Part shown: in pieces, positions 13,601 through 27,783 of the stretch | Layout of the letters: each line of letters opens with the position of its first letter | Numbering within the stretch: the first letter of the stretch is position 1 | Source of the DNA: a bacterium | GTDB lineage: Bacteria > Myxococcota_A > UBA9160 > UBA6930 | DNA length: 64,000 bases | Direction of reading: 5' to 3' | Assembly: GCA_024228115.1 (NCBI GenBank) | Contig: JAAETT010000546.1 | Location: 4,109 to 68,108, forward strand | Made by a program: the position numbers and the translations under genes | The notes under the pieces: generated by a model | Told to the model about the DNA's origin: nothing | Database searches by the model: none | Seen by the model: the letters and a program-made list of their open reading frames with translations, nothing else

Positions 13601-14198
13601 GCATCTTCAGAAGCTCGGCGTTCACCCGGTCCTGATCCGGAATGCCGTGGCGTTGGAGCTCCAGGTAGTAACGGTCCTTGAACGTCTCGGACATTTCTTC
13701 GACGAGGCGCCACGCGGTATCGACTTCGCCACCCAGGATCCGTCGGCACACCAGCGAGGAGAGGCAGCCGCTGGTCGTGATCAGCCCTTCGCTGTGCTTG
13801 TTCAGCAGGTCCAGATCGATCCGCGGCTTGTAGTAGAAGCCCTCCAAGTAGGCCTTGGAGATCAGGAACATCAGGTTGTGGTAGCCCGTCTCGTTCATCG
13901 CCAGCAGCAGCTGGTGGCTGATGGCATCGAAACCGCTCGCATCCCGTTCGCGCTTCTCCTTGTCGAATCGCGAGCCCGCAGCGATGTAGGCCTCGCAGCC
14001 GATGATCGGCTTGATGCCGTTGGCGCGGGCTTTCTCGTAGAACTCCACCGCCCCGAACAGGTTGCCGTGATCGGTCATGGCAATCGAGTTCTGCCCGAGG
14101 GCCTTCACCCGCTCGAAGAGTGGGTTGTGCTTGATCGCGCCATCGAGGAGCGAGTACTGGGTGTGGAGATGGAGATGCGAGAAGGGAACGTCCGTCAC
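10683..14198 (-). CDS. dnaE: DNA polymerase III subunit alpha
   Basis: PHP domain HLHLHTQYSLLDG, GPGRGSSAGS, RISMPDIDVDF, GLIKFDFLGL, FPKAH; 1171 aa. Confidence 0.98.
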   Translation of the reverse strand: MTDVPFSHLHLHTQYSLLDGAIKHNPLFERVKALGQNSIAMTDHGNLFGAVEFYEKARANGIKPIIGCEAYIAAGSRFDKEKRERDASGFDAISHQLLLAMNETGYHNLMFLISKAYLEGFYYKPRIDLDLLNKHSEGLITTSGCLSSLVCRRILGGEVDTAWRLVEEMSETFKDRYYLELQRHGIPDQDRVNAELLKMHSDLGLPLLATNDAHYLEEEDHDHHDALLCIGTASNLDDTKRFRFDGHGFYVKSGAEMLEVFHDHPSAVHNSMEIAERCNLELSMDTYHMPEFQVPANMTREEVLERDAWRGLRTSLGMDPEQPFEGRHPEYTNRLEYELGVIRQMGFAGYFLIVADFISYAKRNGIPVGPGRGSSAGSLAAYSLGITGVDPIEYDIIFERFLNPERISMPDIDVDFCMRGRDEVIRYVANKYDEPDRGDDGRRVSQIITFGTLQARAAIRDVGRVLGMPYGDVDRIAKLVPETLGINLDEALEQSPELRSRMDADGQVAKLLTTARKLEGLTRHASTHAAGVVIGTQPLIEMVPLYRDAKTGDVMTQYDMRCVEKVGLIKFDFLGLRTLTIIADAEKHIRARGVPDFSIDTIPLDDEGSYDLLCQGDTEGVFQMESSGMTDLVMKLKPRTFKEVIPLIALYRPGPLGSGMVDDYVDRKHGITKVEYLVPELEELLRETLGVIVYQDQVLQIANQLGGYTLGEADLLRRAMGKKKVEEMAKHRNQFVSGAEKNGIDPKKADELFTLMAEFAGYGFPKAHSTAYAYLTYQTAYLKANHPREFLASVLSIEAGNHDKLARYIAHTKERKIEVLPPDVNESKRDFTPVAEGIRFGLAGVKNVGEGAIESILAVREEEGPFLGLYDFARRVNARKVNRRVAESLVKCGAFDAFHRNRSSLWAGLDAALETGAAAQRDREIGQESLFGDATDNAIAPAELPEAAQWTDQERLGYEKEVLGFYVTGHPLEAHLPVLARFTDATATTAAEWVNRDVRVGGLITGLRETRTRRGQTMAFGKIEDLEGGFELVIFAEPYATHRDLLRRALESGSDATQAAIPLIVSGSLESAEPPKLLLRDVFELAEAEERLAACVHIRILADEASRDRLSALDDVLRSFSGDCSVWVHMMIPGESETVMAIPESRGVEPTQELVKAIDGLFGRAVSEVGL

Positions 14199-14205
14199 GT
14201 CCGCC

Positions 14206-15765
14206 CTACTCCCACTCGATGGTGGCGGGAGGTTTCGAGGAGATGTCGTAGACGACCCGGTTCACCCCGGAAACCTCGTTCGTGATGCGGTTCGAGGCGA
14301 GCGCCAGCACTTCGGGTGGCATGCGCGACCAATCTGCGGTCATTCCGTCGACGGAGCTGACGCAGCGCAGGGCGATGCAATCCTCGTAGGTGCGTGCGTC
14401 ACCCATCACTCCGACACTCTGGATCGGGAGGAAGACGGCGAAGGCCTGCCAGATCTCGTCGTAGAGGCCAGCGCGTCGGATCTCCTCGATCAGGATCGCG
14501 TCCGCCTGGCGCAGGCAAGTCAACCGCTGGGCGGTGACCTCCCCCATGATGCGGATCGCCAGACCGGGGCCCGGGAACGGATGGCGACCGACCATCGCTT
14601 CCGGAAGGTCGAGCGTCCGGCCCGCCTCGCGGACCTCGTCCTTGAAGAGCTCGCGAAGCGGCTCGACCAGTTCCAGACGCATCCGCTCGGGAAGGCCCCC
14701 GACGTTGTGGTGGCTCTTGATCGTCGCCGACGGACCACCCACCGAAACGCTCTCGATGACGTCCGGATAGAGGGTGCCCTGGACGAGGAAATCGGCGCCG
14801 CCCAGCTTCTTGGATTCCTCCTCGAAGATATCGATGAAGAGGTGCCCGATGATGCGCCGCTTGCGTTCCGGATCTTCCACTCCGGCCAGGAGCTTCAAGA
14901 AACGCTCCCGCGCATCCACTGTGATCAGCGGGATCCCCAGGTGTTCGCCGAACGCCCGCTCGACATCCTCGCGTTCGTTTTGTCGGAGCAGACCATGATC
15001 GACGAAGATGCAGGTCTGCCGGTCGCCGATCGCGCGGTGCACGAGCGCCGCGGCGACCGACGAATCGACCCCCCCGGACAGGCCGCAGATCACCCGACCC
15101 GAGCCCACCTGGCTGCGAACCTTCTCGCAGGCGTCGTCGACGAAGGCGTCCATCGTCCAACTGCCTTCACAGCCGCAGATCGTGTGGACGAAGTTGGTGA
15201 GAATGCGCGCGCCATCTTCGGTGTGCACCACCTCCGGGTGGAACTGCAGGCCGTAAACGGGTCGGTCGCGATGGCCCACCGCTGCGAACGGCGAGTTCTC
15301 GCTCGTGGCAAGGATCTCGAAGCCCTCGGGCAGCCGGAGCACGCGGTCGCCGTGGCTCATCCAGACGTGTCGCTCGGCCCGTCCGTCGAGCCCGTTGAAG
15401 AGCGGATGGTCGGCCGCTTTCAGCTTGAGCAGCGCGCGGCCGTACTCATGGTCATCCGCACTTTCGACCAGCCCGCCGAGTTCCCGGGTGAGCAGCTGCA
15501 GGCCGTAACAGATGCCGAGGATCGGCACGTCCAGTCCGAGCACCGCCGGGTCGAGGCTCGGGGCGTCTTCAGCCAGCACACTGGACGGCCCGCCCGAAAG
15601 CACGAGGCCGGCCGGGCGCCAGGCCCGGACCTGCTCCGCCGTCAACGTCGGCGGATGGATCTCGCAGTAGACCTGCTGCTCCCGGATCCTCCGGGCAATC
15701 AGCTGGGTGAACTGGGACCCGAAGTCCAGGATGAGGATACGATCGCGGTGTGCGTCACTCGACAA
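14206..15765 (-). CDS. guaA: GMP synthase (glutamine-hydrolysing)
   Basis: [59 protein letters not shown]. Predicted TTG start. Confidence 0.97.
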
Positions 15766-15841
15766 AGGGGGCGCCCCTGCTGGAGAGGGCCTGGAGGAAG
15801 GCCCAACGGTGGTGCGGGGAATCTGAGGGGTTCTAGCGCGG

Positions 15842-17566
<1,725 letters not shown>

Positions 17567-17655
17567 TTAGCTGAACCTGCAGTCGAGGCCCTCATGAACC
17601 CTTCTCACGCCTGCCTCGGAAGCACCGCCGATCTACCCCAAGGAGAGTCCAACCG

Positions 17656-19011
17656 TTGACGGCCTCGACCACGCCGAGCGACGCCCCCGCCCGCCCCTGG
17701 CGCTCGATCCCGATCGATGGGATCGGGGATACCCTGCGCGCGCTGCCGCGCATCAAGCGCGACATGCTCGGGGTCGTCAGCGAGCGCTGCCAGCGAAATG
17801 GCCTGGTCGTGAGGCAGAACCAGGGCCCGATCCGCGCGGTCAACCTCTTCGGGCCCGATGCGAACCGCTTCGTGCTGCTCGATCGCGACGAGATCTTCTC
17901 GGCGAAGAAGTCGTGGGATCTCATCATGGGTCGCATCTTCACGAACGGCCTGCTGCTTCGGGACGGTGAAGATCACCGTTTCCATCGCCGTCTCCTGCGT
18001 GAGGCGTTCCGTACGCCCGCGCTCCAGTCGTACCTCGACCAGATGAACGAGGCGCTCGTTCCGTGGGCCGAGGGCCTCGCGCTCAAGGGCGGGCACATCC
18101 GCGCCTTCCCGGTGATCAAGCAGATGGCGCTCGACATGGCGTGCCGGATCTTCCTCGGCCTGCCGCCCGGCTCCGACAACACGAAGATGAACCACGCGTT
18201 CGAGGCAACGGTGGCCGCCTCGATGTCGATCCTGCGTCTACCGATCCCCGGCCTCGAGTTCAATCGCGGGCTCGAGGGGCGCAAGTACATGATCCGCCGC
18301 TTCAAGCGCATGATCCAGGAGCGCCGCGGAGGAGAGAGCGGCGGCTCCGACACCTTCACCCGCCTCTGTCATGCCGAGAACGAGAATGGCGAACGCCTCG
18401 CCGACCAGGAGATCATCGATCACATGATCTTCCTGATGATGGCGGCCCACGACACGACGACGAGCGCTCTCACCTCGCTGCTCTACGAACTCGCGGCCAA
18501 CTCCGCGTGGCAAGAGCGCCTGCGAGACGAGGTGCATGCGTTCGACAAGCCGGCGATCGAGTGGGACGACCTGCTCCACGTGAAGGACCACATCCTCGCG
18601 ATCCAGGAGGTGCTGCGCCGCTATCCGCCGCTCTCGACGATCCCGCGCATGGCGACGGCCGACTTCGAGTGGGGGGGCTACCGGATCCCCGCCGGCACGA
18701 TGACGATCATCTACCCGATCCACACGCACCACATGGCCAAGTGGTGGAGCGATCCGTTCCGTTTCGACCCCGATCGCTTCGCGGAGGGCCGCGAGGAACA
18801 CAAGCGACACAGCCACTCGTACGTGCCCTTCGGCGGCGGCAACCACATGTGCCTCGGGCTGCGCTTCGCCGAAACCCAGATCAAGGCCGCGCTCTTCCAG
18901 TTGCTGCAACGCGTGCGCCTCAGCGTGCCCGAGGGCTACGTGATGCCGGTCCAGCAGGCGCCTATCTCGAAGCCGGTGGACGGGCTACCGCTCACGCTAG
19001 AGCCGCTCTAG
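17656..19011 (+). CDS. Cytochrome P450 (resembles the CYP136-like group)
   Basis: I-helix MMAAHDTT, ExxR (EVLR), FRFDPDRF and heme motif FGGGNHMCLG. Confidence 0.93.
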   Translation: MTASTTPSDAPARPWRSIPIDGIGDTLRALPRIKRDMLGVVSERCQRNGLVVRQNQGPIRAVNLFGPDANRFVLLDRDEIFSAKKSWDLIMGRIFTNGLLLRDGEDHRFHRRLLREAFRTPALQSYLDQMNEALVPWAEGLALKGGHIRAFPVIKQMALDMACRIFLGLPPGSDNTKMNHAFEATVAASMSILRLPIPGLEFNRGLEGRKYMIRRFKRMIQERRGGESGGSDTFTRLCHAENENGERLADQEIIDHMIFLMMAAHDTTTSALTSLLYELAANSAWQERLRDEVHAFDKPAIEWDDLLHVKDHILAIQEVLRRYPPLSTIPRMATADFEWGGYRIPAGTMTIIYPIHTHHMAKWWSDPFRFDPDRFAEGREEHKRHSHSYVPFGGGNHMCLGLRFAETQIKAALFQLLQRVRLSVPEGYVMPVQQAPISKPVDGLPLTLEPL

Positions 19012-19166
19012 GAGGCGCATACGGAACAACGCGTCGAACGCGGGCCACCGCGCAAGGCCCCGGATGCGTCTCGATATGCGGGCATGAGTCTGCGAGAATT
19101 GGGCACTCGCAGGAACAGGTGCTCGGTGAGAACGTGCGACTCGAACGGGCAGCAGAGGGATGCAAG

Positions 19167-19472
19167 GTGGCCGATCTCAAGACAGTGACCCACGCCGAGT
19201 TCGAGGAGCGCCTCGAACAGGATTTTCGATTGCACGTCGACGAGTCTCAGATCATCGACCTGAAGCTCACGCGCGTCGATCCGCAGGGTCCGGCCGAGAC
19301 GGAGAGTGGACTCCGCCGGCCCTTCTCGCTGACCTTCGAGGCCCATTCGGCCTCCCTGCTTCCGCAGCGGATCTACCAGGTCGAGCACGCAGCACTGGGT
19401 CGCCTTGAGCTCTTCCTGGTGCCGGTCGGGCGTGAGGGAGAACGCGTCCTCTACGAGGCGGTCTTCAACTGA
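19167..19472 (+). CDS. DUF6916-like small beta protein (cytoplasmic)
   Basis: GTG after AGAGGGA; ...RPFSLTF...LLPQRIYQVEHAALGRLELFLVPVG...YEAVFN, the pattern typical of proteins beside tail-collar triplets. It is the C-terminal part of the 18063..19472 frame. Confidence 0.75.
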   Translation: MADLKTVTHAEFEERLEQDFRLHVDESQIIDLKLTRVDPQGPAETESGLRRPFSLTFEAHSASLLPQRIYQVEHAALGRLELFLVPVGREGERVLYEAVFN

Positions 19473-19487
19473 GTCCGCCCGATCGGG

Positions 19488-20039
19488 CTATCCCGCAGGG
19501 GCTCCCGAAGGCCCGTTCTCCTCGCCTCCCTGGAGGGCGGTGATTTCGTCCAGAGCCCGGTGCATGAGCTTGTAGATGCCGACGTCGTCCACGGGCGCGA
19601 AGCCCATCCGCTGGTAGAGGCGCATGGCGGGGTTCGATTCCTCGACGTGGAGGCTCACCAAGCGCCGGCTCTGCTCCGCCTCGTCGAGCACGTCCTGAAC
19701 GAGGTGGGTCCCGATGCCGCGTCCCCGGCGCTCGGGAAGCAGCGCGATGTCCATGATGCGGATCTCGCGCTTCATCGGCTCCACGTAGTAGCGGCCAATG
19801 GTCCGGCCCCCCTCGCAGACGAGGTCGTATCGCGCATCGGGGTAGTGCTGGTGGTAGTGACGGTGCTGGAGCTCGAACTGACTGCGCAGGAAGGCGCCCT
19901 TCTGAGCATCGCTCCAGGGGACGATCGCCATCTCGTCGGCGCGGGAGGATGAGTACACCCGGTAGAGAAACTCGAGGTCGCCATCGGAAGCCGGGCGCAG
20001 GGTCACGCCGGGGTACGACGTGGTCCGGTCGTGGGGCAT
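19488..20039 (-). CDS. GNAT family N-acetyltransferase
   Basis: LRPASDGDLEFL N-terminus; acetyl-CoA motif A IALLPERRGRGIG; LHVEESNPAMRLYQRMGF. Confidence 0.9.
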   Translation of the reverse strand: MPHDRTTSYPGVTLRPASDGDLEFLYRVYSSSRADEMAIVPWSDAQKGAFLRSQFELQHRHYHQHYPDARYDLVCEGGRTIGRYYVEPMKREIRIMDIALLPERRGRGIGTHLVQDVLDEAEQSRRLVSLHVEESNPAMRLYQRMGFAPVDDVGIYKLMHRALDEITALQGGEENGPSGAPAG

Positions 20040-20055
20040 CGATGGCGCCGGCCCG

Positions 20056-20580
20056 TCAGCTGCGGGAGGGGTAGAGCCCAACCAGCGCAATGATGTAGTT
20101 GAGCGCCAGCAAGGGCTGCACGTTGTTGTGCATCTGACCGCCGCCGACGGGGCTGATCACGTTGACGTCCATGTCGACGACGTCTGCGTCGCCCGCGGCC
20201 ACCGCCGGCGCATACCAACTGGCTCCGCCCAGGCCTCGCGTACCGGTCGGGTTCGCCGCCTCCAGGTTCGAGTAGCCCACCATCGCGTGGCTGTGAGGCG
20301 GGACCTGGGCCTCGCTCAGGGTCTGCGTCTCGGCGCCACCCCTCTCCCCCAGCCGGCGAGAGGTGAGGCCGGGGCCGCGACCCGGGTGCATGGGCGCACG
20401 CCCCTGCAGGTCCGGAAGCGCCGTCGTGGTGCGTCCATCGCCCCCGTAGGTGGTGCCGATGAGGGAGAAGAGCGCCGTATTCTGGGCGATCGGCAGGAGC
20501 TGGCCGTTGCAGAAGGCCCAGCCTCGCGGAGCGAAGTTGCCGGCGAAGATCCTGATCTCGGCGATGAAGGGCTCGGACAT
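20056..20580 (-). CDS. Phage tail-collar domain protein (so-called microcystin-dependent protein), paralogue 3
   Basis: MSEPFIAEIRIFAGNFAPRGWAFCNGQLLPIAQNTALFSLIGTTYGGDGRTT.ALPDLQGR ... HNNVQPLLALNYIIALVGLYPSR. Confidence 0.9.
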   Translation of the reverse strand: MSEPFIAEIRIFAGNFAPRGWAFCNGQLLPIAQNTALFSLIGTTYGGDGRTTTALPDLQGRAPMHPGRGPGLTSRRLGERGGAETQTLSEAQVPPHSHAMVGYSNLEAANPTGTRGLGGASWYAPAVAAGDADVVDMDVNVISPVGGGQMHNNVQPLLALNYIIALVGLYPSRS

Positions 20581-20652
20581 GGCGCGTCCTCTCTATGGGT
20601 TGGCTCTCGCTCTGCTGGCAGTTCGTTCATCGGGTCCTGGTGGCGCTCCGAA

Positions 20653-21171
20653 TCAGTGGCGCGACGGGTAGATCCCAAGGAGTGCGATGATGAAGTGGAT
20701 GCACAGGAAGGGCATGAGGTTCCCGTGGGACTGCCCTCCTCCGGGAGCGGGTGTGATCGCCCGCGTATCCATGGCTCTCGGCCCCGCCGTGCCGTAGAGA
20801 TTGCTTCCGGTGGCTGTTGCCACCGTGTGACCGGCCGGGTCGGAATCCTCGGCGGTTTCGGCCGAGGCGTACCAGGAGTGGCTGTGACTGGGGAGCTGAT
20901 TGGTGGTGACGCTCACCTGCTCCTCCCCGCCCTTCGACCCGAGTTGCCGAGGGCTGAGGCCGGGCCCCGAGCCCTGGTGGTTCGGAATACGACCGCGCAA
21001 GTCCGGAAGGCCGAAGGTGGTGCGTCCGTCGCCCCCGTAGATGGTCCCCAGGAGGCTGAAGAGGGCGTCGTTCTGGGAGACCGCGAGGAGCTGACCGTCG
21101 CAGAACGCCCAGCTGCGCGGCGCGAAGTTACCCGCGAACATTCGGATCTCGCCGACGAAGGGCTCGGACAT
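20653..21171 (-). CDS. Phage tail-collar domain protein, paralogue 2
   Basis: MSEPFVGEIRMFAGNFAPRSWAFCDGQLL...GTIYGGDGRTTFGLPDLRGR ... HGNLMPFLCIHFIIALLGIYPSR. Confidence 0.9.
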   Translation of the reverse strand: MSEPFVGEIRMFAGNFAPRSWAFCDGQLLAVSQNDALFSLLGTIYGGDGRTTFGLPDLRGRIPNHQGSGPGLSPRQLGSKGGEEQVSVTTNQLPSHSHSWYASAETAEDSDPAGHTVATATGSNLYGTAGPRAMDTRAITPAPGGGQSHGNLMPFLCIHFIIALLGIYPSRH

Positions 21172-21203
21172 TTCTCTTCTCCTGGCTCTGGATCTATTTC
21201 CGG

Positions 21204-21731
21204 TCAGATTCGCGAAGGAAAGAGACCCTGAAGTGCAATGCAGTAGCTCAGCGTCAGATAGGGCTGCATGTTGTTGTGCCCCTGCCCTCCGCCGCCGTTC
21301 GCGACCGTGCTGGTGTGCAGGCTCTGCGGGCTGGTGCGGTCGCTGTAGGGGATGATCGAGAAGGGCCCGCCACTCGTGACGGCGAGCAGCTTGCCCTGCG
21401 GATCGGTCGAGCTCACCGTGGCGCTCGTCGCCCTGGCCTCGTGCTCGTGTTGGGGGATCTCTTGGGTCGAGAGTTGGTGATTCTCCTCTCCGGTCTTCTG
21501 TCCCAGCGGGTGCGAGGCCCCGTTCGAGCTTCCGACGTGGATCGGCGTACGGCCCCGAAGGTCAGGGAGAGCGAAGCTGGTCCTCCCGTCGCCGCCGTAC
21601 GTGGTACCGAGCAGCGAGTAGAGCGCCTGGTTCTGGTTGATGGGGAGGATCTGTCCATCACAGAACGCCCAGCCGCGGGGCGGGAAGTTGAAGCCGACGA
21701 TCTTGATCTCGGCGAGAAAGGGCTCGGACAT
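21204..21731 (-). CDS. Phage tail-collar domain protein, paralogue 1
   Basis: MSEPFLAEIKIVGFNFPPRGWAFCDGQILPINQNQALYSLLGTTYGGDGRTSFALPDLRGR ... HNNMQPYLTLSYCIALQGLFPSR. Confidence 0.9.
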   Translation of the reverse strand: MSEPFLAEIKIVGFNFPPRGWAFCDGQILPINQNQALYSLLGTTYGGDGRTSFALPDLRGRTPIHVGSSNGASHPLGQKTGEENHQLSTQEIPQHEHEARATSATVSSTDPQGKLLAVTSGGPFSIIPYSDRTSPQSLHTSTVANGGGGQGHNNMQPYLTLSYCIALQGLFPSRI

Positions 21732-21789
21732 GGAGCATCTCCTGGGCGTTCAGTGCCGTGCCTGGCGCCATCGGCAGGCGATCGAGCGC

Positions 21790-22242
21790 TCACGCAGCGC
21801 CCGCGCAAGAAGGGGTCAGGGGCTTGAGGGAGCTGAAGGACGCCTCGTAGTAGGTCCCGTCCGGGGCTACGCCCGCCGGTTGCAGGTGGAGTTGGAAGCC
21901 AGGGCCATCCGGCGGTGCGACGGCGTAGAGTCCCTCGTCGATCTCCGTGTGGGATGAGCCGCGAAACGTGACCGTGAACTGGTCGAGCCGCGACGAGACG
22001 TCATGGGGAACCACCTCGACCAACTCGAGGGATCGCCAGGCGCCGTCGTCGAAGCCGAACCACTGGCCCATCCGATCGTTGTAGTAGCCCCGCGTGAATT
22101 CGGGGCCCTCGGCCCGTGCCGGATCACCGGCGAACAACACGATCGGACCGAGCGCGGTGGCCGCGACGGTCGCCGTGGTGCCCTGCAAGAAGCGGCGTCT
22201 CGGGATCTTCGGGTCGGTATCTCTTCGTTCCGAGCTTCCCAT
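21790..22242 (-). CDS. Tat-signal DUF6916-like protein
   Basis: Twin-arginine signal PRRRFLQGTTATVAATALG...ARA; then LELVEV...DQFTVTFRG...EGLYAV...FQLHLQP...YYEASF, which aligns by eye with the 19167 protein. Confidence 0.7.
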   Translation of the reverse strand: MGSSERRDTDPKIPRRRFLQGTTATVAATALGPIVLFAGDPARAEGPEFTRGYYNDRMGQWFGFDDGAWRSLELVEVVPHDVSSRLDQFTVTFRGSSHTEIDEGLYAVAPPDGPGFQLHLQPAGVAPDGTYYEASFSSLKPLTPSCAGAA

Positions 22243-22269
22243 CTCTCGACCTCCTCATCTGGCTTCGAC

Positions 22270-23799
22270 TCAGGTCCCGACTCCATTCCGCCGCCGCATC
22301 GCCAGCGCGATCAACCCGAGGCCGAGCAGCGCACCGGTCGCCGGCTCGGGCACCACGATGAAGTGAATCGTAGCGGACACGTAGCTGCTGATGCTCTGAA
22401 GATACAGATCCGCCACGCGCACCTCGAGCGTCGCCATGCCGAGTCCGAAGATCGAGGCGAGGGTTGCGTCGTCGACGAACTCCGCGCCGGCCCCGATCAG
22501 GGCCGCGCCAAAGTCGGTGAAGAGCACGCCGCCATCGTAGAGCCCGATCTCGAGCCCCTCGAAGTCGACGACACTTGCGTTGACGGCCAGGTCCAGGTCA
22601 TCGACGTCGAGCTCGAAGAGGAGGCCGCCCGGCTGGGAGCTGGCCGATGCATCCAGAATCACGGGCAGGGCATTGCCGTAGGACACCGTCATCGTGTCGG
22701 TGCCGCCGTCGAGGCCCGTCAGCTCCTCGTGCACCTCAATCTCCCAGGTCGCCGTATCGAGGGTCGATCGCAGGCCCGAGTCTGCGATGCCGACGGTCTT
22801 GTTGACCATGTCCACGGTGCGGGTTCCGCTGGGCGGGGGCTGCAGCACGAAGGGGCTCTCCGAGGGGATGATGTTGGGCCGGTCCGCATCGGCGTCAGCG
22901 CCTACCAGCGGCACGTCCTGCGCGCCGCCCTGGACGCTTCCCAGATTCGACCAGGTATGCGTCAGGAAGTCCTCCCCATCGCTGCGCGCCGCGCCGAGGT
23001 CGTTGTCCTGCCAGGTGCCGTCGCCGTTGCGGAAGGTGCCGCCATCGGTGGTGATGCTGAGGGTGCTGGCGTCATAGGTCATGTCGGCACCGGCCTCGGC
23101 CACCACAGCCTCGGCAGCGACGATGGCATTCACCGAGCGAATCACCGTGCCGTAGGCCTGGCCTTCGTCCCGGATGTTCACCACGGTCGAGGGCGTCGGA
23201 ACCGGGATGCCATCTCCCGGATCGATGCCGGCCACCTCGGTATTGAGCTGGATGAAGTTCAGGTTGCCACCGGGCCGGTCGACGGCGTTGCCCTCGAGGC
23301 GGTAGCCCAGGAAGTGGGCGGGAGTCGCCGCCGGGGACGTGAAGTAGATCTTCGGGGTCGGGCTGGCGTAGGGGTCGCCCGGCCAGTTCAGGTGGCTCTG
23401 GTCGGTCTGGGTGTAGACGAAGGGCGTTCCGCCGCTGTCGAAGCCCTCCATCGGCACGATCACCTCGACGTTGTTGGCGTTCTCCACGAGCCCGCCGCCG
23501 GTGGGTGGAGCCGATCCTCCAGCCAGCGCGACGCCGTAGACGTCGAGGCCGTTGATGTTCTCCGCCGTGGCGGTGACCGGGTCGTAGGTCGTCTTGATGA
23601 CGAACTTACCGCCCTTGTTGAGCGCGGTGCCCGAGCCGGGCTGGGCGGAGCCGGGGTTCTCGCTCCAGATGCCGATCTGGATGATGTCGATCGGAGCCGC
23701 TTGCGCGGTTCCGGCCCCCAGCGCAAGGGCGAGAAGGATGGACAGGGCCGTGGGGGGGGCGACGATCGCCAGGAGCTGCGGCAGGCACAACCGTCTCAT
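22270..23799 (-). CDS. PEP-CTERM sorting-domain surface protein
   Basis: Signal peptide ending GTAQA; acidic Gly/Thr-rich body; C-terminus VVPEPATGALLGLGLIALAMRRR. ATG 23799 has an AAGGGG RBS. Confidence 0.9.
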   Translation of the reverse strand: MRRLCLPQLLAIVAPPTALSILLALALGAGTAQAAPIDIIQIGIWSENPGSAQPGSGTALNKGGKFVIKTTYDPVTATAENINGLDVYGVALAGGSAPPTGGGLVENANNVEVIVPMEGFDSGGTPFVYTQTDQSHLNWPGDPYASPTPKIYFTSPAATPAHFLGYRLEGNAVDRPGGNLNFIQLNTEVAGIDPGDGIPVPTPSTVVNIRDEGQAYGTVIRSVNAIVAAEAVVAEAGADMTYDASTLSITTDGGTFRNGDGTWQDNDLGAARSDGEDFLTHTWSNLGSVQGGAQDVPLVGADADADRPNIIPSESPFVLQPPPSGTRTVDMVNKTVGIADSGLRSTLDTATWEIEVHEELTGLDGGTDTMTVSYGNALPVILDASASSQPGGLLFELDVDDLDLAVNASVVDFEGLEIGLYDGGVLFTDFGAALIGAGAEFVDDATLASIFGLGMATLEVRVADLYLQSISSYVSATIHFIVVPEPATGALLGLGLIALAMRRRNGVGT

Positions 23800-24000
23800 T
23801 GAGGATCCCCTTCTTAGGCGGAGTCCCCTTCCCGTCTGCACTCTAACCCGATGTGGCGGAGCGGTCGAGTAGCTTGGCATCTTCGGCCCGCGGTCGTACT
23901 CAGTGGCATCGGCGCGGGAGGTCTCGTCTGGCGTCGCGCCAGGATCGGACCGGCGGGGTACCGGAGCTGCCTCCTCAACCGCCGCAGAACAGCCCTTCGG

Positions 24001-24423
24001 CTACAGCAGGCGGTCGAACCCCGAACGGACGGTCGCGGCCAGGTCGCGCAGGATGGCTTCCAGGATACGCGTGGCGGCGCGGGGGGCATCTTCCGAGAGC
24101 CGCAGGAAGGCGCTTCGGGGGAAGAGCAGCAGGAGGGAGGGTTCGCTGGCCACCAATGTCAATTCCCGCCGGCCGAGCGCCGCCAGGGAGGTATCGCCGA
24201 GGTGACGCCCGGCTTCGAGCGTGCCCAGCTCGCCGGCCTGGCTGTTCGACAGCATCAGCGAGCCTTCCGCCAGCAGGATGAGACCGTCGGCTTCGTCACC
24301 TTCGTTCTGGAGCACCTCTCCCTCCACCAGCTCACGTTCTTCGAGGAGGGAGGTCACGAGTTCCAGCTCTTCGTCTGTGAGATCGCTGAAGGGGGCGAAG
24401 ATCTTCGCGCTGGTGGCGCTCAC
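24001..24423 (-). CDS. Stand-alone cyclic-nucleotide-binding domain protein
   Basis: FSDLTDEELE...EGEVLQNEGDEADGLILLAEGSL...HLGDTSL...RRELTLVA; no HTH. Confidence 0.8.
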   Translation of the reverse strand: MSATSAKIFAPFSDLTDEELELVTSLLEERELVEGEVLQNEGDEADGLILLAEGSLMLSNSQAGELGTLEAGRHLGDTSLAALGRRELTLVASEPSLLLLFPRSAFLRLSEDAPRAATRILEAILRDLAATVRSGFDRLL

Positions 24424-25961
24424 GGCAGGATCCTTCCGAAGATCGTCTTGAGCAGCGTGACCGGATCCCGCTCGCCTTCCAAGGGGACCAGGAAGACCGA
24501 AGCCTGATCCAGCAGTCCGAGGCTCGATTCGATTTCGTCCACGGCCAGCTTCTCGCCCTTCGGGAGCATGAAGGCGTGGAAGATCCGGGCGTCATGGCGC
24601 TGGGCGCGAAGCCGCTCGACCAACGGACGCAAGTGCTCCTCACCTTCTCGCTGGGGCGAGTTCATGAGCAACAGAGTGCCGAGTGAGCCCTGGGCAAGGG
24701 CGGGCCAGCAAGCTTCGAAGCGCTTCGCCGTGGGGACGTGGAGCAGTTGGATCCCCACGCCATCGTCCACACCCAGCCGGCCAAGGGTCGCAACATCGTC
24801 CTGGCGGATCTCCCCGCTACGGAAGGCCGGCTCGAGACGGAAGCCCGGTAGCGCGGTCAGCAGCCGCGCAAACTCGCGGGTCATGCCGGGATCCGTCGCG
24901 GCCACGAGCAACTTGGCATCCCGTGCGGGCACCCCGCGCGGCCGGCCACTCTGCAACCACTCCCGCAATCGCTCCTGCTGGGCGGGCTCGAAGAGGACAT
25001 CGACGCGACCTGCTTCACCGTATTCCGGTTCGCGCCGCAACTGCACGATGCCGCGATCGCAAAGCGCCTGCAGTGTGCGGAGCACCTGGTAGTCCGGGAA
25101 CGTCGAGTGGTCCATCAGCTCGCCCACCCGATCGTCATGCTCCAGGAGATCGAGCAATTCCTCGGTGACGGGATGAACGGCATTCGGCAGTTCTTCGCGG
25201 GGCACCAGCAGGCGCACGCGGCCGGAGGGCGGCGGGAGCGAGCCCTTCAGCTGATCCCATTCGTCGAGCTGGCGAAGGGCCTCCATCAGGAGTACTCGCG
25301 TGGGGGTGGTGATCCGGGGTGTCATCGTGACCGTGCCCGGCCTGAAGGCAAAGCCCCCCTCGCGCCAGGCCAACAGCCGGAACAGGGCTTTCTCTCCCTC
25401 CACTCGGCCAACGGTCGCCTGGATGAGATCGCCTTCGCGTAGGATGAGCGCGCCGCGCTCACCGGGTGCGCCCCCCTCCTGCGGGCTGAGTTCGATGGTG
25501 CCCGTACGCCGATTCATGTGAAAGAGCTGCAACAGGTCGGTCAGCGGGATCTGCGAGAGCTTTCCCTGGACCGCCTGCTCGGCCTCTGCTTCCCGGTCCA
25601 CCGCATCGATGCGCTTGCGTTGCGCCAGGATGGCCTCGATCCGCAGGGCGATCTCTTCGCCCGTTGCCTCGGCCGAGAGCGTATCGTCGAAGAAGCCCCC
25701 GGCTGGCTCGCTCCCCAGGAAGAGGAAACGCACACCCTTCGTCCGTGGGTTGGCGCGCAGGATCTCGACCAGGGTTCCCGCGTCGATCAGTTCCAGGTCC
25801 GATACCGCGACCACGACATCCGGAACGTCCGCGAGCGCTGCCTCCAGTGCCGCCGCGCCGTGGCGAGCAACGCTCGTTGCGTAGCCTCTGGCAGCGCAGG
25901 CTTCGGCGAGATCACGCCCACGGCTCGGGTGCAGTTGTGCGACGAGGATGGAGCTAGTCAC
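24420..25961 (-). CDS. Pseudo-receiver + DUF4388 + winged helix + degenerate small-GTPase-like domain protein
   Basis: REC-like N-terminus lacking the acidic pocket; DUF4388 pattern QGKLSQIPLTDLLQLFHMNRRTG...GEKALFRLLAWREGGFAF...LLMEALRQLDE; C-terminus resembles the MglA/CvnD G-domain. Confidence 0.7.
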   Translation of the reverse strand: MTSSILVAQLHPSRGRDLAEACAARGYATSVARHGAAALEAALADVPDVVVAVSDLELIDAGTLVEILRANPRTKGVRFLFLGSEPAGGFFDDTLSAEATGEEIALRIEAILAQRKRIDAVDREAEAEQAVQGKLSQIPLTDLLQLFHMNRRTGTIELSPQEGGAPGERGALILREGDLIQATVGRVEGEKALFRLLAWREGGFAFRPGTVTMTPRITTPTRVLLMEALRQLDEWDQLKGSLPPPSGRVRLLVPREELPNAVHPVTEELLDLLEHDDRVGELMDHSTFPDYQVLRTLQALCDRGIVQLRREPEYGEAGRVDVLFEPAQQERLREWLQSGRPRGVPARDAKLLVAATDPGMTREFARLLTALPGFRLEPAFRSGEIRQDDVATLGRLGVDDGVGIQLLHVPTAKRFEACWPALAQGSLGTLLLMNSPQREGEEHLRPLVERLRAQRHDARIFHAFMLPKGEKLAVDEIESSLGLLDQASVFLVPLEGERDPVTLLKTIFGRILP

Positions 25962-27783
25962 CGATCGGAATCCCCAGATCGTGGCTCAGGCCGAAGGCCA
26001 GCTGCTCGACGACCACCGGGTCGGCGGTGTGAAAGGTGGTGGCGTCCTCTGCGCCGCCATCTTGGACATACGCGTACGAGGCGCCTTCTCCAAGGTAGAC
26101 GAGGAAGGGCTGACCTGCGCCGACACGTTTCGGAGAGACCCAGGTGACCGGCACACCCGGCATCAGCTGCTCATCGCGATCGGCGAACAGCACGACCTCG
26201 GTGCGCGGTGTCGTTCCCCGCAGCTGTTCCAGGGCGGAACGCAGCTTCGCCGTCTGCCCGTCCAGGGGCGCGACGAACAGCAATCCCCGGTGGTGCGGGT
26301 TGCGGCTGACCTCGTCCAGCAGGAAGCCGGCCATCTGGTCGCCGAGACCGGTGGCCCCTTCTTCACCCTCTGCCAGCAGGTTCTCCAGCAGCCCGCGAAA
26401 CGGTGCCTCCTCCAACTCGTAGAGCCGGAGCAGGCTGCGGCGATCCGCGTCGATGCGCCGATCCAGGCATGCGCGCAGCTCTTGGGGATCGCTTCCGTTG
26501 GCAGGGAACGTGGCCATGGCACTCAGCACGGCCGGCCGGTCGTCCGCCAACTGTTGAAACGCGGGGCTGCGCTCGAAGGCCGCCCGGAGGCGTCTCTTGG
26601 CCACGACCGAGCCCAGGTTGTCGCATTCGGGCAGTAGCACCACGTACTCGTGCTCGGTTTCGGTCCCGAGCAGATCCGTCGTCCGCACCGCCCGCTGGAG
26701 ATCGCCGACGACGGCCTGGATCCAGACGTTGAACTCTCCGGGAGAGAGGCGTGCTCGTACGGGCCCGATCGGATCGAGCGCGATGCGCACCACGGAGAGG
26801 CTGCGGCCGAAGCGCTTGGCCTTCTGCAACTCGTACTCCAGGACGTCATCGAAATAGGCCCGCGTGTAGGCGTGGGTCGTCGGATCCTTGAACGAACGTC
26901 GCTCGAGAGAACGGAAGGCAATCGCGTTGGCGAGAGCCTGGCTCGCGAACAATGCGAATCGTTCGGCGACCTCCCGATCGCCATCGTCGAACTCGGAGCC
27001 ATCGACCCGATCGGTGAGCCGGAGCAGACCCAACATCTCGCCATCGTGGCGAATCGGAACGAAGAGCGGCGCCCGCGGCGCGCCCGTGTCCTCTGCCAGC
27101 AGGGACTGGCAGTCGGGCTCGGCCAACGGGCGAAGAACCGCGGGCAGGTCTCCGACCTCGATCTCCTCCACCTCATCCTTGACCCGGATCAACCCGCCGG
27201 CGCCGCACAATCGCAGGCGGCTCGGATGGTCCGGATCAGCGAGCCAGGCCACCCCCGCGTGGGCGTTCGTCTCGAGGCACAGGACTTCGACGATACGGTC
27301 GGCAAGCGGCTCGATGGAAAGCGTTGAGAACAAGCCCAGCGCCCGCTCGTACTGGGCGAAATGGCCCATGAACGAGAGGTTCTCTGCCACCAGCCGGTCG
27401 TGCTCGGCGTGCATGGCGCGGCGCTCGAGAATCCCATCGATGGATCGGAGCAACGCCGTGCGATCGATCGGCTTCAGCAGATAATCCGTCGCACCCAGCC
27501 GCATCGCTTCGACCGCGGTCTTGACGTCGCCCACGCTGGTGACGACGACGACGTCCTGCTCTGGCCAGCGCTCCTTGACCTGTCGCACCAGCTCGCGCCC
27601 GTCCATCTCGGGCATGACCAGATCGGTGAGTACCAGGTCCGGCGGCTCCTCCTCCATCAAGGCGAGGGCTTCGGCACCGCTTCCGGCCGTGACCACCTCG
27701 AAATCCTCGCCTCGCAGCAAGTCCTCGAGGAAGACCCGGAAATAGAGCTGGTCATCGACCGCGAGTATCCGCGCCGAGTTCAC
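25954..27783 (-). CDS. Response regulator with REC, GAF, degenerate GGDEF and C-terminal DICT-like domains
   Basis: ILAVDD...DLVLTDLVMPEMDG...YLLKP (intact REC); GAF VPIRHDGEMLGLLRL; GGDEF fold KDPTTHAYTRAYF...RTTDLLGTETEHEYVVLLP. Confidence 0.8.
   Translation of the reverse strand: MNSARILAVDDQLYFRVFLEDLLRGEDFEVVTAGSGAEALALMEEEPPDLVLTDLVMPEMDGRELVRQVKERWPEQDVVVVTSVGDVKTAVEAMRLGATDYLLKPIDRTALLRSIDGILERRAMHAEHDRLVAENLSFMGHFAQYERALGLFSTLSIEPLADRIVEVLCLETNAHAGVAWLADPDHPSRLRLCGAGGLIRVKDEVEEIEVGDLPAVLRPLAEPDCQSLLAEDTGAPRAPLFVPIRHDGEMLGLLRLTDRVDGSEFDDGDREVAERFALFASQALANAIAFRSLERRSFKDPTTHAYTRAYFDDVLEYELQKAKRFGRSLSVVRIALDPIGPVRARLSPGEFNVWIQAVVGDLQRAVRTTDLLGTETEHEYVVLLPECDNLGSVVAKRRLRAAFERSPAFQQLADDRPAVLSAMATFPANGSDPQELRACLDRRIDADRRSLLRLYELEEAPFRGLLENLLAEGEEGATGLGDQMAGFLLDEVSRNPHHRGLLFVAPLDGQTAKLRSALEQLRGTTPRTEVVLFADRDEQLMPGVPVTWVSPKRVGAGQPFLVYLGEGASYAYVQDGGAEDATTFHTADPVVVEQLAFGLSHDLGIPIGD

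What the first reader, a model, noticed from the sequence alone, without database searches (positions are those of the whole stretch)
19167..23799. Phage-free tail-collar module with a PEP-CTERM anchor: candidate uncharacterised surface-assembly system
Seen: one minus-strand run of PEP-CTERM protein, Tat-signal DUF6916-like protein, three tail-collar paralogues and a GNAT, facing a second DUF6916-like gene. There are no capsid, terminase, sheath, tube, baseplate or integrase genes anywhere in the window. Established: collar domains come from phage tail fibres; collar-triplet/GNAT/DUF6916 cassettes recur in annotations ('microcystin-dependent protein') with no demonstrated mechanism that I know of; PEP-CTERM marks exosortase-processed surface proteins. 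Inference: a domesticated fibre-like complex that is modified by the GNAT, chaperoned by the DUF6916 proteins and displayed with or on the PEP-CTERM protein (adhesion, receptor binding or defence). This is the best candidate for an undescribed system in the window.
Basis: partly seen in the sequence, partly recalled or inferred. Interest (0 to 1): 0.8.

Follow-up and report, generated by a model that had tools for sequence, protein, structure and literature searches.

The report
Non-phage fibre-tip cassette with PEP-CTERM partner
This is a real seven-gene bacterial cassette, not part of any phage. Three proteins that resemble the receptor-binding tip of a phage tail fibre travel with their own acetyltransferase, two small DUF6916 proteins and an exosortase-anchored surface protein, and they most likely build a cell-surface binding device that nobody has studied.

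Summary

**The PEP-CTERM protein is a true cassette member, not a chance neighbour.**
- All seven relatives (35-86% identical) whose neighbourhoods I could read lie in the same cassette, each with different flanking genes.
- Two genomes of the same order pair the cassette with other PEP-CTERM proteins.

**The core cassette is widespread and almost entirely cellular.**
- The core is three Collar genes in fixed A-B-C order, a GNAT and DUF6916.
- At least 598 matches turned up in species genomes across many phyla, against 15 in 2.9 million viral contigs.
- It usually sits beside a giant Ig/cadherin-like exported protein. Here a 509-aa Ig-like protein with a PEP-CTERM tail takes that place.

**In this genome it lies on a 6.57-kb stretch absent from a same-genus genome.**

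**One refutation condition is partly met.** The genome does carry a contractile injection system on another contig. However, five of 14 cassette genomes in the phylum lack one, and none of the 80 loci has injection-system genes within 10 kb.

**Best reading (about 0.5):** a domesticated, metal-centred three-chain binding knob working with an anchored stalk. Two steps are my own untested inferences: acetylation of the invariant Ser/Ala N-termini by the GNAT, and export by riding on the Tat-signal DUF6916.

No paper describing the cassette was found. This scan has flagged the same cassette in at least 12 other genomes.

The parts
22270..23799 (-). 509-aa exported protein: Sec signal peptide, all-beta Ig/cadherin-like domains, C-terminal PEP-CTERM sorting tail (VPEP, then a membrane-spanning stretch, then RRR)
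   Evidence: PF07589 27.2 bits and TIGR02595. The alignment of 23 relatives keeps the VPEP...RRR tail and an invariant DNDLGA.R.D.EDFL..W motif. AlphaFold2 model has pLDDT 76.5. Foldseek matches: RTX-adhesin tandem Ig repeats 6xi1 at E = 1e-6, and cadherin ectodomains. Seven of seven relatives are in the cassette.
21790..22242 (-). 150-aa DUF6916 protein with a twin-arginine (Tat) signal (RRRFLQG...)
   Evidence: PF21880 E = 1.1e-12. TAT_signal scores 22.3 bits, just under its cut-off. TIGR01409 is above its cut-off. The AF2 model is a six-stranded beta-barrel with pLDDT about 95 over residues 50-140. TatC is present in the genome.
21204..21731 (-). Collar paralogue A (175 aa), homologous to a phage tail-fibre tip; no signal peptide
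   Evidence: PF07484 E = 6.7e-29, plus Gp10_C. phrog_9116 'tail protein' matches residues 7-167. It belongs to orthologous group A.
20653..21171 (-). Collar paralogue B (172 aa)
   Evidence: PF07484 E = 1.7e-29. Orthologous group B.
20056..20580 (-). Collar paralogue C (174 aa)
   Evidence: PF07484 E = 5.1e-29. Orthologous group C.
19488..20039 (-). GNAT acetyltransferase (183 aa). Its nearest characterised relatives are N-terminal acetyltransferases.
   Evidence: PF00583 E = 1.8e-14. Best NCBIfam match is RimI at 1.4e-11, below its cut-off. Best PDB sequence matches are Naa50 (6yzz) and 'N-terminal acetyltransferase' (6wqb). A GNAT is present in 76 of 80 loci.
19167..19472 (+). 101-aa DUF6916 protein without a signal peptide, convergent with the GNAT (15 nt between the two stop codons)
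   Evidence: PF21880 E = 4.8e-27. The same convergent position is seen in relatives. DUF6916 is present in 69 of 80 loci.
17428..23999 (.). 6.57-kb stretch (a cytochrome P450 gene plus the cassette) that is absent from a same-genus genome
   Evidence: blastn places window 15001-17427 on G123 11861-14331, and window 24000-26574 on G123 14384-16995. The two flanks are therefore 52 bp apart in G123. An independent Logan contig spans 17400-24400 without any difference.
17656..19011 (+). Cytochrome P450 gene that shares the inserted stretch; it does not travel with the cassette elsewhere
   Evidence: PF00067 E = 8.9e-63. No P450 lies next to the cassette in the relatives' loci.

Best explanation
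The locus is a cellular, horizontally mobile cassette that has domesticated the receptor-binding tip of a phage tail fibre.

**Proposed mechanism**
1. The three Collar paralogues (A, B, C) assemble 1:1:1 into one asymmetric trimer. Its axis is held by a metal bound to the invariant His-x-His of each chain. Its conserved base carries a hypervariable distal head that binds a ligand, most likely a surface glycan.
2. The GNAT, which resembles RimI/Naa50-type enzymes, acetylates the invariant Ser/Ala N-termini of the three chains in the cytoplasm.
3. The knob has no signal peptide. It leaves the cytoplasm already folded by riding on the Tat-signal DUF6916 protein. The signal-less DUF6916 copy acts as a cytoplasmic assembly or holding factor.
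4. Outside, the knob works with the Ig/cadherin-like protein, which the exosortase system fixes to the cell surface through its PEP-CTERM tail. In most other phyla a giant Ig/cadherin/beta-helix exoprotein plays this part.

**What is shown**
- Gene content, and homology of the Collar proteins to fibre tips.
- Three ancient orthologous groups in a fixed order.
- A conserved scaffold with a variable head.
- Strict linkage to the PEP-CTERM protein.
- Independence from phage genes.
- Accessory status in this genome.

**What is inferred**
- The heterotrimer and its metal.
- The acetylation target.
- Tat hitch-hiking.
- Docking to the anchored protein.
- The ligand.
For: **The Collar proteins are fibre-tip homologues**
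- They match tail-fibre PHROG families over residues 7-167.
- They match solved fibre tips: 8kec, and T4 gp12 (1ocy, 1pdi, 5iv5).
- P.H.H is invariant in the three paralogues and present in 198 of 206 Collar proteins from 80 loci.

**Three ancient orthologous groups in fixed order**
- Orthologues are 55-90% identical; paralogues are at most 55% identical.
- The order is A-B-C in 72 of 80 loci, two of which carry it twice.

**Conserved scaffold, variable head**
- Across phyla, residues 1-60 and 150-175 are 80-95% conserved.
- Residues 100-140 are only 19-47% conserved.

**Precedent for a heterotrimer**
Three consecutive Collar proteins of virophage DSLV2 co-purify as a 1:1:1 heterotrimer that binds Synechococcus cells. 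Docking and modelling point to lipopolysaccharide as the receptor (PMC12724248).

**N-termini and the GNAT**
- The N-termini read M-[S/A]-[E/D/Q]-P-[F/Y] in nearly all Collar proteins, and there is never room for a signal peptide.
- The GNAT's closest characterised relatives are N-terminal acetyltransferases.

**The Tat partner**
- The RR signal is detected by Pfam and NCBIfam, and TatC is in the genome.
- Every one of the seven related cassettes has the longer, upstream DUF6916 copy. The Tat signal itself was on record for one of them; I did not read the signals in the others.
- About 20 of the 80 loci have a Tat-type DUF6916, as do both same-order genomes.

**The PEP-CTERM partner**
- Its fold is Ig/cadherin-like.
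- Its linkage to the cassette is strict.
- The genome has two exosortases and 37 PEP-CTERM signals.
- Partners elsewhere are exported Ig/cadherin proteins carrying the sorting tag usual for their lineage.

**Not phage, not defence**
- 15 viral contigs hold a relative, against at least 598 matches in species genomes.
- No PADLOC match.

**Accessory in this genome**
Against: - Nothing here shows that the Collar proteins leave the cell. They, the GNAT and one DUF6916 copy look cytoplasmic.
- No multimer model could be run, so the heterotrimer and every proposed contact are inferences.
- The 509-aa protein has no detectable sequence homology to the giant partners (hhalign probability 0.15%). It may therefore not play the same part.
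- The DUF6916 fold matches nothing informative: best E = 0.25 in the PDB and 0.018 in the viral library.
- The GNAT's resemblance to N-terminal acetyltransferases is weak and below curated cut-offs.
- The genome has a contractile injection system. In the phylum sample the cassette is mildly enriched in genomes that have one: 9 of 14 against 66 of 187, odds ratio 3.3, p = 0.043.
- There is no expression evidence. The RNA runs from the same samples gave no contigs on the locus.
Confidence: 0.5

Rival explanations
1. The three Collar proteins are tail fibres used in trans by the extracellular contractile injection system encoded elsewhere in the genome. The first reader named this as a refuter.
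For: - The genome carries a full injection-system locus on contig C612: sheath, gp19-type tube, Pvc16, AAA ATPase, VgrG-like spike, two baseplate-J proteins and an eCIS_core protein.
- In 201 genomes of the phylum, 9 of 14 cassette genomes have Pvc16 against 66 of 187 others (odds ratio 3.3, p = 0.043).
- The same-genus genome G123 lacks both the cassette and the injection system.
Against: - Five cassette genomes of at least 92% completeness have no Pvc16: G103, G148, G173, G066 and G082.
- The enrichment is driven by one family, f33, where both features are common.
- The two loci are always on different contigs or more than 150 kb apart.
- No sheath, tube, baseplate or spike homologue lies within 10 kb of any of the 80 cassette loci.
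- The injection-system locus has its own 1154-aa DUF6519/beta-helix candidate fibre.
- This reading explains neither the PEP-CTERM protein, nor the Tat-DUF6916, nor the GNAT.
Confidence: 0.1
2. The knob is released as a free soluble lectin, or as a bacteriocin-like or matrix component. The PEP-CTERM protein and the giant proteins are co-regulated surface partners or targets, not its physical carrier.
For: - The partner is not one conserved family. It varies from 197 to more than 3000 aa.
- COG4675 proteins are detected in soil metaproteomes (PMC5579227).
Against: - There is no toxin or enzyme domain anywhere in the cassette.
- The tight linkage to an anchored or exported protein in most loci is easier to explain by physical cooperation.
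Confidence: 0.15
3. The Collar trimer acts inside the cell, for example as a sensor or a regulator of the export or glycosylation of the neighbouring surface protein. Only the Tat-DUF6916 and the PEP-CTERM protein are exported.
For: - The Collar proteins, the GNAT and one DUF6916 copy have no signal peptides.
- A GNAT needs acetyl-CoA and so works in the cytoplasm.
Against: - Every characterised relative of this fold is an extracellular receptor-binding tip.
- A hypervariable distal head is the signature of an outward-facing ligand-binding surface.
- There are no matches to defence-system models.
Confidence: 0.15
4. The PEP-CTERM gene is a chance neighbour of a Collar/GNAT/DUF6916 module.
For: - Most cassettes in other phyla have no PEP-CTERM protein.
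- Distant relatives that share only its C-terminal module lie outside cassettes.
Against: - Seven of seven relatives with E at or below 1e-30 lie in the same cassette, each with different flanks.
- Two same-order genomes have other PEP-CTERM proteins in the same position.
Confidence: 0.03

Closest known systems
Tripartite tail proteins of virophage DSLV2 (J Virol 2025, PMC12724248)
   Same: Three consecutive genes for Collar-domain (PF07484) proteins of about 170-200 aa. In DSLV2 they were shown biochemically to form one 1:1:1 heterotrimeric fibre tip that binds Synechococcus cells, with lipopolysaccharide proposed as the receptor from modelling and docking.
   Different: - The DSLV2 proteins are virion proteins that sit on a capsid.
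- Here there is no virus. The cassette adds a GNAT, two DUF6916 proteins and an anchored surface protein.
- The A-B-C groups here are conserved across many bacterial phyla.
- Triplets found in viral contigs (L106-L108) do not sort into the A-B-C order.
Receptor-binding tips of phage T4 short and long tail fibres (gp12: PDB 1OCY, 1PDI, 5IV5; gp37 tip)
   Same: The Collar domain plus head domain, and a His-x-His motif. From my own knowledge of the published structures, that motif binds Zn or Fe on the trimer axis in gp12 and gp37.
   Different: - The T4 tips are the C-terminal ends of long homotrimeric fibres, and they are encoded among phage structural genes.
- Here the tip is a free-standing protein of about 175 aa that starts at the Collar domain, comes in three paralogous forms, and has no shaft.
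PEP-CTERM/exosortase surface proteins (Haft et al. 2006, from my own knowledge; TIGR02595, PF07589)
   Same: An N-terminal signal peptide, a C-terminal VPEP motif followed by a membrane-spanning stretch and a basic cluster, with exosortase genes in the same genome.
   Different: PEP-CTERM proteins are usually tied to exopolysaccharide loci. Linkage to fibre-tip homologues was not found in the literature searched.
Tat 'hitch-hiker' co-export, e.g. E. coli hydrogenase-2 HybO/HybC (Rodrigue et al. 1999, from my own knowledge)
   Same: A folded, metal-containing partner without a signal peptide, encoded next to a small subunit that carries the only twin-arginine signal.
   Different: This is purely an analogy. 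No contact between the Collar proteins and DUF6916 has been shown, and DUF6916 has no known cofactor or relative.
Shufflon PilV-Collar fusion protein (NAR 2023, PMC9881135)
   Same: Another case in which a phage Collar domain has been taken over by a cellular surface organelle as a probable tip adhesin.
   Different: It is a single fused pilin whose specificity is varied by DNA inversion. It is not a three-gene set with a GNAT and DUF6916.

Membership tests
Collar-triplet / GNAT / DUF6916 cassette (no paper describing it was found; seen repeatedly in this scan) | Three Collar paralogues of about 170 aa in fixed A-B-C order, each belonging to its own orthologous group | tested here: met
   Orthologues are 55-90% identical and paralogues at most 55%. 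The order is A-B-C in 72 of 80 loci, and the window has the same order.
Collar-triplet / GNAT / DUF6916 cassette (no paper describing it was found; seen repeatedly in this scan) | A dedicated GNAT and a signal-less DUF6916 gene next to the triplet | tested here: met
   Window. A GNAT is present in 76 of 80 loci and DUF6916 in 69 of 80.
Collar-triplet / GNAT / DUF6916 cassette (no paper describing it was found; seen repeatedly in this scan) | An adjacent giant Ig/cadherin/beta-helix exoprotein homologous to those of other cassettes | tested here: not met
   The window's partner is 509 aa. hhalign against 22 giant partners gives a probability of 0.15%. Only the fold class (Ig/cadherin-like) and the export signals are shared. 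The window is therefore a partner-swapped variant.
Prophage or phage tail-fibre locus | Collar genes embedded among phage structural, packaging or integration genes | tested here: not met
   The inserted stretch holds only a P450 gene and the cassette. Both flanks are collinear with a same-genus genome. The genome has only these three Collar domains.
Tail fibres of an extracellular contractile injection system (Afp13/Pvc13 role) | Encoded within or beside the injection-system operon | tested here: not met
   The injection system is on contig C612 and the cassette on C546. No injection-system homologue lies within 10 kb of any of the 80 cassette loci.
Tail fibres of an extracellular contractile injection system (Afp13/Pvc13 role) | The cassette occurs only in genomes that have an injection system | tested here: not met
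   Five of 14 cassette genomes lack Pvc16. There is a weak enrichment (odds ratio 3.3, p = 0.043) that is confounded by phylogeny.
PEP-CTERM / exosortase substrates | A signal peptide, a C-terminal PEP motif with a membrane-spanning stretch and basic residues, and an exosortase in the genome | tested here: met
   PF07589 scores 27.2 bits and TIGR02595 22.7 bits. The genome has two exosortase genes and 37 PEP-CTERM signals. Processing itself cannot be tested with these tools.
Tat substrates | A twin-arginine signal peptide, and TatC in the genome | tested here: met
   The signal reads RRRFLQG followed by a hydrophobic stretch. TIGR01409 scores 19.9 bits against a cut-off of 16.7. Pfam TAT_signal scores 22.3 bits, just under its 22.7 cut-off. 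TatC scores 234.9 bits.
Heterotrimeric Collar fibre tip (virophage DSLV2 type) | The three proteins form one 1:1:1 trimer | not testable with these tools
   Only single-chain prediction is available. The support is indirect: three fixed orthologous groups and an invariant His-x-His motif.
Known anti-phage defence systems (PADLOC) | A match to any defence-system protein model | tested here: not met
   None of the seven proteins has a match at E up to 0.01.
N-terminal acetyltransferases (RimI / Naa50 type) | A score above the curated family cut-off, or shown N-alpha-acetylation of a defined substrate | tested here: inconclusive
   RimI (TIGR01575) scores 44.7 bits against a cut-off of 86.4. The best PDB matches are Naa50 at 1.7e-5 and 6wqb at 7e-5, followed closely by spermidine acetyltransferases.

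The most novel reading that the evidence does not exclude
The cassette is a self-contained way for bacteria to put a phage-derived binding head on their own surface.

1. A three-chain, metal-centred knob is built in the cytoplasm.
2. A dedicated acetyltransferase caps its three invariant N-termini.
3. It is carried out fully folded through the Tat pathway by a small DUF6916 adaptor that bears the only signal peptide. A signal-less paralogue of that adaptor holds or checks the knob beforehand.
4. It then plugs onto whichever anchored stalk the lineage uses: PEP-CTERM here; giant adhesins, IPTL-CTERM or T9SS-tagged proteins elsewhere.

If this is right, DUF6916 is a new class of Tat adaptor, and the asymmetric A-B-C trimer exists because it docks onto a single-chain partner rather than a three-fold symmetric one.
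Probability: 0.2. Interest if true: 0.8.

Novelty: new variant of a known kind. Interest (0 to 1): 0.6.

Why it matters
- **Spread.** Proteins labelled "phage tail collar" or "microcystin-dependent protein" occur in hundreds of bacterial species from many phyla and appear in soil metaproteomes, yet none has an assigned cellular role.
- **What this locus shows.** The core cassette is a fixed unit that swaps its surface partner between lineages. The partner is an exosortase-anchored protein here and a giant adhesin elsewhere. That makes it a likely general, exchangeable surface-recognition device taken over from phages.
- **What the compact version offers.** At seven genes and 4.6 kb, this version is a convenient construct for testing four things:
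  - whether the heterotrimer forms;
  - what the dedicated acetyltransferase acts on;
  - whether Tat carries a phage-type fibre tip out of the cell;
  - what the variable head binds.
- **Practical use.** It also warns annotators not to read such triplets as prophage remnants.

Tried and rejected
1. **Chance neighbour.** Rejected by the synteny of relatives.
2. **The 509-aa protein as a shortened homologue of the giant partners.** Rejected. HMM and profile-profile comparisons are negative. Only the fold class is shared.
3. **Prophage remnant.** Rejected.
4. **Defence system.** No PADLOC match.
5. **Function of DUF6916 from its fold.** The model is confident, but nothing significant matched in the PDB or the viral structure library.
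6. **DUF6916 in viral contigs.** The alignment was too divergent for the scan.
7. **Expression and operon evidence.** The RNA runs from the same samples held no contigs on the locus. This is uninformative.
8. **Promoter and terminator scan.** Nothing found, which is uninformative in a 66% G+C genome.
9. **Terminal repeats at the edges of the 6.57-kb stretch.** None beyond chance. The mechanism of gain or loss is unknown.
10. **Literature.**
    - No paper mentions DUF6916.
    - None links PEP-CTERM with tail collar.
    - The COG4675/MdpB search returned only noise.
11. **Distant relatives sharing only the C-terminal Ig-like plus PEP-CTERM module.** They are not in cassettes. The cassette-specific part of the protein is therefore roughly residues 35-315.

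Full report

Yes. ORF listing and Pfam/NCBIfam scans confirm a minus-strand run of six genes.
- A 509-aa protein, 22270-23799. It has a Sec-type signal peptide. PEP-CTERM PF07589 scores 27.2 bits against a cut-off of 20.7.
- A 150-aa DUF6916 protein with a twin-arginine signal, 21790-22242.
- Three Collar proteins of 172-175 aa: 21204-21731, 20653-21171 and 20056-20580. PF07484 E is about 1e-29, and they are 48-49% identical to each other.
- A GNAT. Reading the sequence puts its start at the ATG at 20039, giving 183 aa. That is 16 nt after Collar C, not overlapping it.

A 101-aa signal-less DUF6916 gene, 19167-19472 on the plus strand, converges on the GNAT with 15 nt between the two stop codons. 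The gaps in the minus-strand run are 27, 58, 32, 72 and 16 nt, which fits one operon. Simple promoter and terminator scans found nothing. That is uninformative at 66% G+C.

**2. Is the PEP-CTERM protein part of the module?**

This was the new element in the finding, so I tested it first.
- A search of 5.8 billion proteins found only 30 relatives.
- A full profile search of 1.84 billion cluster representatives found 173, of which 46 have E at or below 1e-30. The family is small.
- Nearly all members keep the VPEP, membrane-spanning stretch and RRR tail, and an invariant central motif DNDLGA.R.D.EDFL..W.
- I looked up the contigs of seven relatives that are 35-86% identical or share most of the profile. 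In all seven the gene sits directly beside a longer DUF6916 gene upstream of three Collar genes. Where the contig continues, a GNAT and a convergent small DUF6916 follow. The surrounding genes differ every time. A Tat signal is on record for the DUF6916 gene in one of the seven; I did not read the others' signals.
- Two more distant proteins that share only the C-terminal Ig-like plus PEP-CTERM module are not next to Collar genes. The cassette-specific part is therefore the N-terminal and central region.
- Two genomes of the same order carry the cassette with other PEP-CTERM proteins in the same position: one of 197 aa, above the Pfam cut-off, and one of 282 aa, below it but with a visible VPEP tail. 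Each of those cassettes also has one Tat-type and one plain DUF6916.
- The host can process such proteins. It has two exosortase genes, 37 PEP-CTERM signals and TatC.

**3. What is the 509-aa protein?**

The AlphaFold2 model built on 23 sequences has a mean pLDDT of 76.5, and above 90 over residues 330-480. It is all-beta, with tandem Ig-like domains and a C-terminal helix. Foldseek places it with the tandem Ig repeats of an RTX adhesin (6xi1, E = 1e-6) and with cadherin ectodomains. It has no phage relative in PHROGs.

**4. How general is the cassette?**

The 80 best loci come from these groups:
- Acidobacteriota
- Gamma-, Alpha- and Betaproteobacteria
- Chloroflexota
- Gemmatimonadota
- Bacteroidota
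- Planctomycetota
- Calditrichia
- Actinomycetota
- Methylomirabilota

I built HMMs from the window and its close relatives and classified all ORFs in these loci.
- The three Collar proteins fall into three orthologous groups. Orthologues are 55-90% identical and paralogues at most 55%.
- The order is A-B-C in 72 of 80 loci (two carry it twice). A GNAT is present in 76 and DUF6916 in 69.
- 56 of 80 loci have an ORF of at least 800 aa within two genes of the cassette, and in 48 of these it is on the same strand.
- Of the 22 giant proteins scanned, 17 have Big_9, 17 have Cadherin_5 and 16 have Cadherin_4. Three end in IPTL-CTERM and two in a T9SS sorting domain.
- Those lying upstream of Collar A commonly end in a C-P-x-P tail.
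- The window's protein is not detectably homologous to these giants.

So the cassette keeps its core and changes its exported, Ig/cadherin-like partner between lineages.

Earlier AI notes from this scan describe the same general cassette in at least 12 other genomes. I treated them as leads and repeated the key counts myself.

**5. Is it phage or injection-system equipment?**

- The genome has only these three Collar domains.
- It does have one extracellular contractile injection system on contig C612: sheath, gp19-type tube, Pvc16, AAA ATPase, VgrG-type spike, two baseplate-J proteins, a 1154-aa DUF6519/beta-helix protein and an eCIS_core protein.
- In 201 genomes of the phylum, 14 have at least two adjacent cassette-type Collar genes. 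Nine of those have Pvc16 and five do not. Among the other 187 genomes, 66 have it. The odds ratio is 3.3 and p = 0.043.
- That enrichment comes mostly from one family where both features are common.
- The two loci are never close together.
- None of the 80 loci has a sheath, tube, baseplate or spike homologue within 10 kb.
- In 2.9 million viral contigs only 15 hold a relative. One has A-B-C plus a GNAT at a contig end. Three have triplets of about 200-aa proteins that do not sort as A-B-C.
- No protein matches a defence-system model.

I conclude that the cassette is cellular and does not depend on an injection system. Use in trans in this particular genome cannot be excluded.

**6. Status in this genome**

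- No genome of the same genus or family in the sample has a Collar domain.
- In the complete same-genus genome, the IMPDH gene and the cNMP-binding gene that flank the locus are 52 bp apart. In the window they are separated by 6,572 bp (17428-23999), which holds a P450 gene and the cassette.
- An independently assembled contig from the source reads spans both junctions without any difference.
- No terminal repeats, integrase or shift in base composition mark the edges.
- The cassette is therefore accessory, gained here or lost in the relative.

**7. How does it probably work?**

*The knob.*
- The Collar proteins align with phage tail-fibre families over nearly their whole length, and with solved fibre tips including T4 gp12.
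- The motif P.H.H is invariant in the three paralogues and present in 198 of 206 Collar proteins.
- From my own knowledge of the published structures, the His-x-His motifs of three chains bind a metal on the trimer axis in gp12 and gp37.
- Across phyla, residues 1-60 and 150-175 are 80-95% conserved, while residues 100-140 are 19-47% conserved. This is the pattern of a fixed scaffold with a variable binding head.
- Three consecutive Collar proteins of virophage DSLV2 were shown biochemically to form a 1:1:1 heterotrimer that binds Synechococcus cells, with lipopolysaccharide proposed as the receptor (PMC12724248).
- Three ancient orthologous groups in fixed order are best explained the same way.

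*The GNAT.*
- The N-termini read M-[S/A]-[E/D/Q]-P-[F/Y] in almost every Collar protein of all three groups, with no room for a signal peptide.
- The GNAT's nearest characterised relatives are RimI, Naa50 and a bacterial "N-terminal acetyltransferase", though all at weak scores.
- My inference: after the first Met is removed, the GNAT acetylates the Ser/Ala N-termini.

*Export.*
- The knob lacks a signal peptide. The only small exported protein is the Tat-signal DUF6916, and Tat moves folded, cofactor-bearing complexes.
- My second inference: the knob is co-exported by riding on the Tat-DUF6916, with the signal-less paralogue acting in the cytoplasm.
- Tat-type DUF6916 copies recur in about 20 of the 80 loci and in both same-order genomes. 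The longer upstream DUF6916 copy is in all seven relatives of this subtype.
- The DUF6916 model is a confident six-stranded beta-barrel with no informative structural relative.

*Display.* Docking onto the PEP-CTERM protein rests on linkage only.

**8. Comparison with what is known, and novelty**

- The closest known system is the DSLV2 tripartite tail. The closest structures are the T4 gp12 and gp37 tips.
- The locus fails the tests for a prophage, for injection-system fibres and for known defence systems.
- It meets the sequence criteria for a PEP-CTERM substrate and a Tat substrate.
- No paper in the library mentions DUF6916, links PEP-CTERM with tail collar, or describes bacterial Collar triplets.
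- The only cellular precedents found are a PilV-Collar fusion pilin and detection of COG4675 proteins in soil metaproteomes.
- I rate it a new variant of a known kind: a domesticated fibre-tip heterotrimer in a previously undescribed cellular setting with a swapped, exosortase-anchored partner. The mechanism is untested.

Noticed in passing
own genome, contig C612:7131-35334 (loci L007, L008); outside the window: A complete extracellular contractile injection system locus: 776-aa sheath, gp19-type tube, Pvc16_N protein, AAA ATPase, VgrG-like spike, two baseplate-J proteins, a 1154-aa DUF6519/beta-helix protein and a 1634-aa eCIS_core protein. The same-genus genome G123 has no Pvc16.
   Followed up: partly
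window 17428-23999: A clean 6.57-kb insertion or deletion relative to the same-genus genome. It carries a cytochrome P450 gene (17656-19011) as well as the cassette. There are no terminal repeats or integrase, so the mechanism of gain or loss is unknown.
   Followed up: partly
L012:6998-8517, L013:5478-6997, L016:4775-6291, L120:10905-12428, L121:6727-8250: In several relatives of this cassette subtype, a gene of about 200 aa (PG_binding_1 in three of the five loci; no Pfam hit on record in L120 and L121) and a PRMT5/PrmA-like methyltransferase gene of about 303 aa follow directly after the convergent DUF6916 gene. The pair is absent from the window.
   Followed up: no
L021, L022, L026, L028, L037, L045, L066, L071, L078 and others: the last 50 or so residues of the giant ORF upstream of Collar A: Giant partner proteins from different phyla share a conserved C-terminal tail. 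It has an ...A.VEAFL..RN... stretch and commonly ends in Cys-Pro-x-Pro just before the Collar A gene. This could be a docking or processing element.
   Followed up: no
L045:13134-13988, L067:11587-12282, L075:11549-12322, L078:11550-12281, L094:5713-6570, L096:5437-6285: Proteins of 230-285 aa with twin-arginine signals and no Pfam family lie between Collar C and the GNAT. Smaller Tat-DUF6916 genes occupy this position in other loci. They may be very divergent DUF6916 proteins or a replacement for them.
   Followed up: partly
L106:2099-3968, L107:1148-3018, L108:198-2037 (IMG/VR contigs): Viral contigs with three tandem Collar genes of 183-206 aa that do not sort into the A-B-C order. They may be the virophage or phage type of tripartite tail.
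   Followed up: no
window 24001-27783, minus strand: A cNMP-binding protein (140 aa), a DUF4388 protein (513 aa) and a 609-aa ORF with a receiver-like N-terminus form a run that is collinear with the same-genus genome (71-77% identical). It is a conserved regulatory cluster next to the insertion point. The 609-aa ORF was not analysed.
   Followed up: no
L032:3429-7769, L049:7477-11679: Two loci carry the A-B-C triplet twice in tandem.
   Followed up: no
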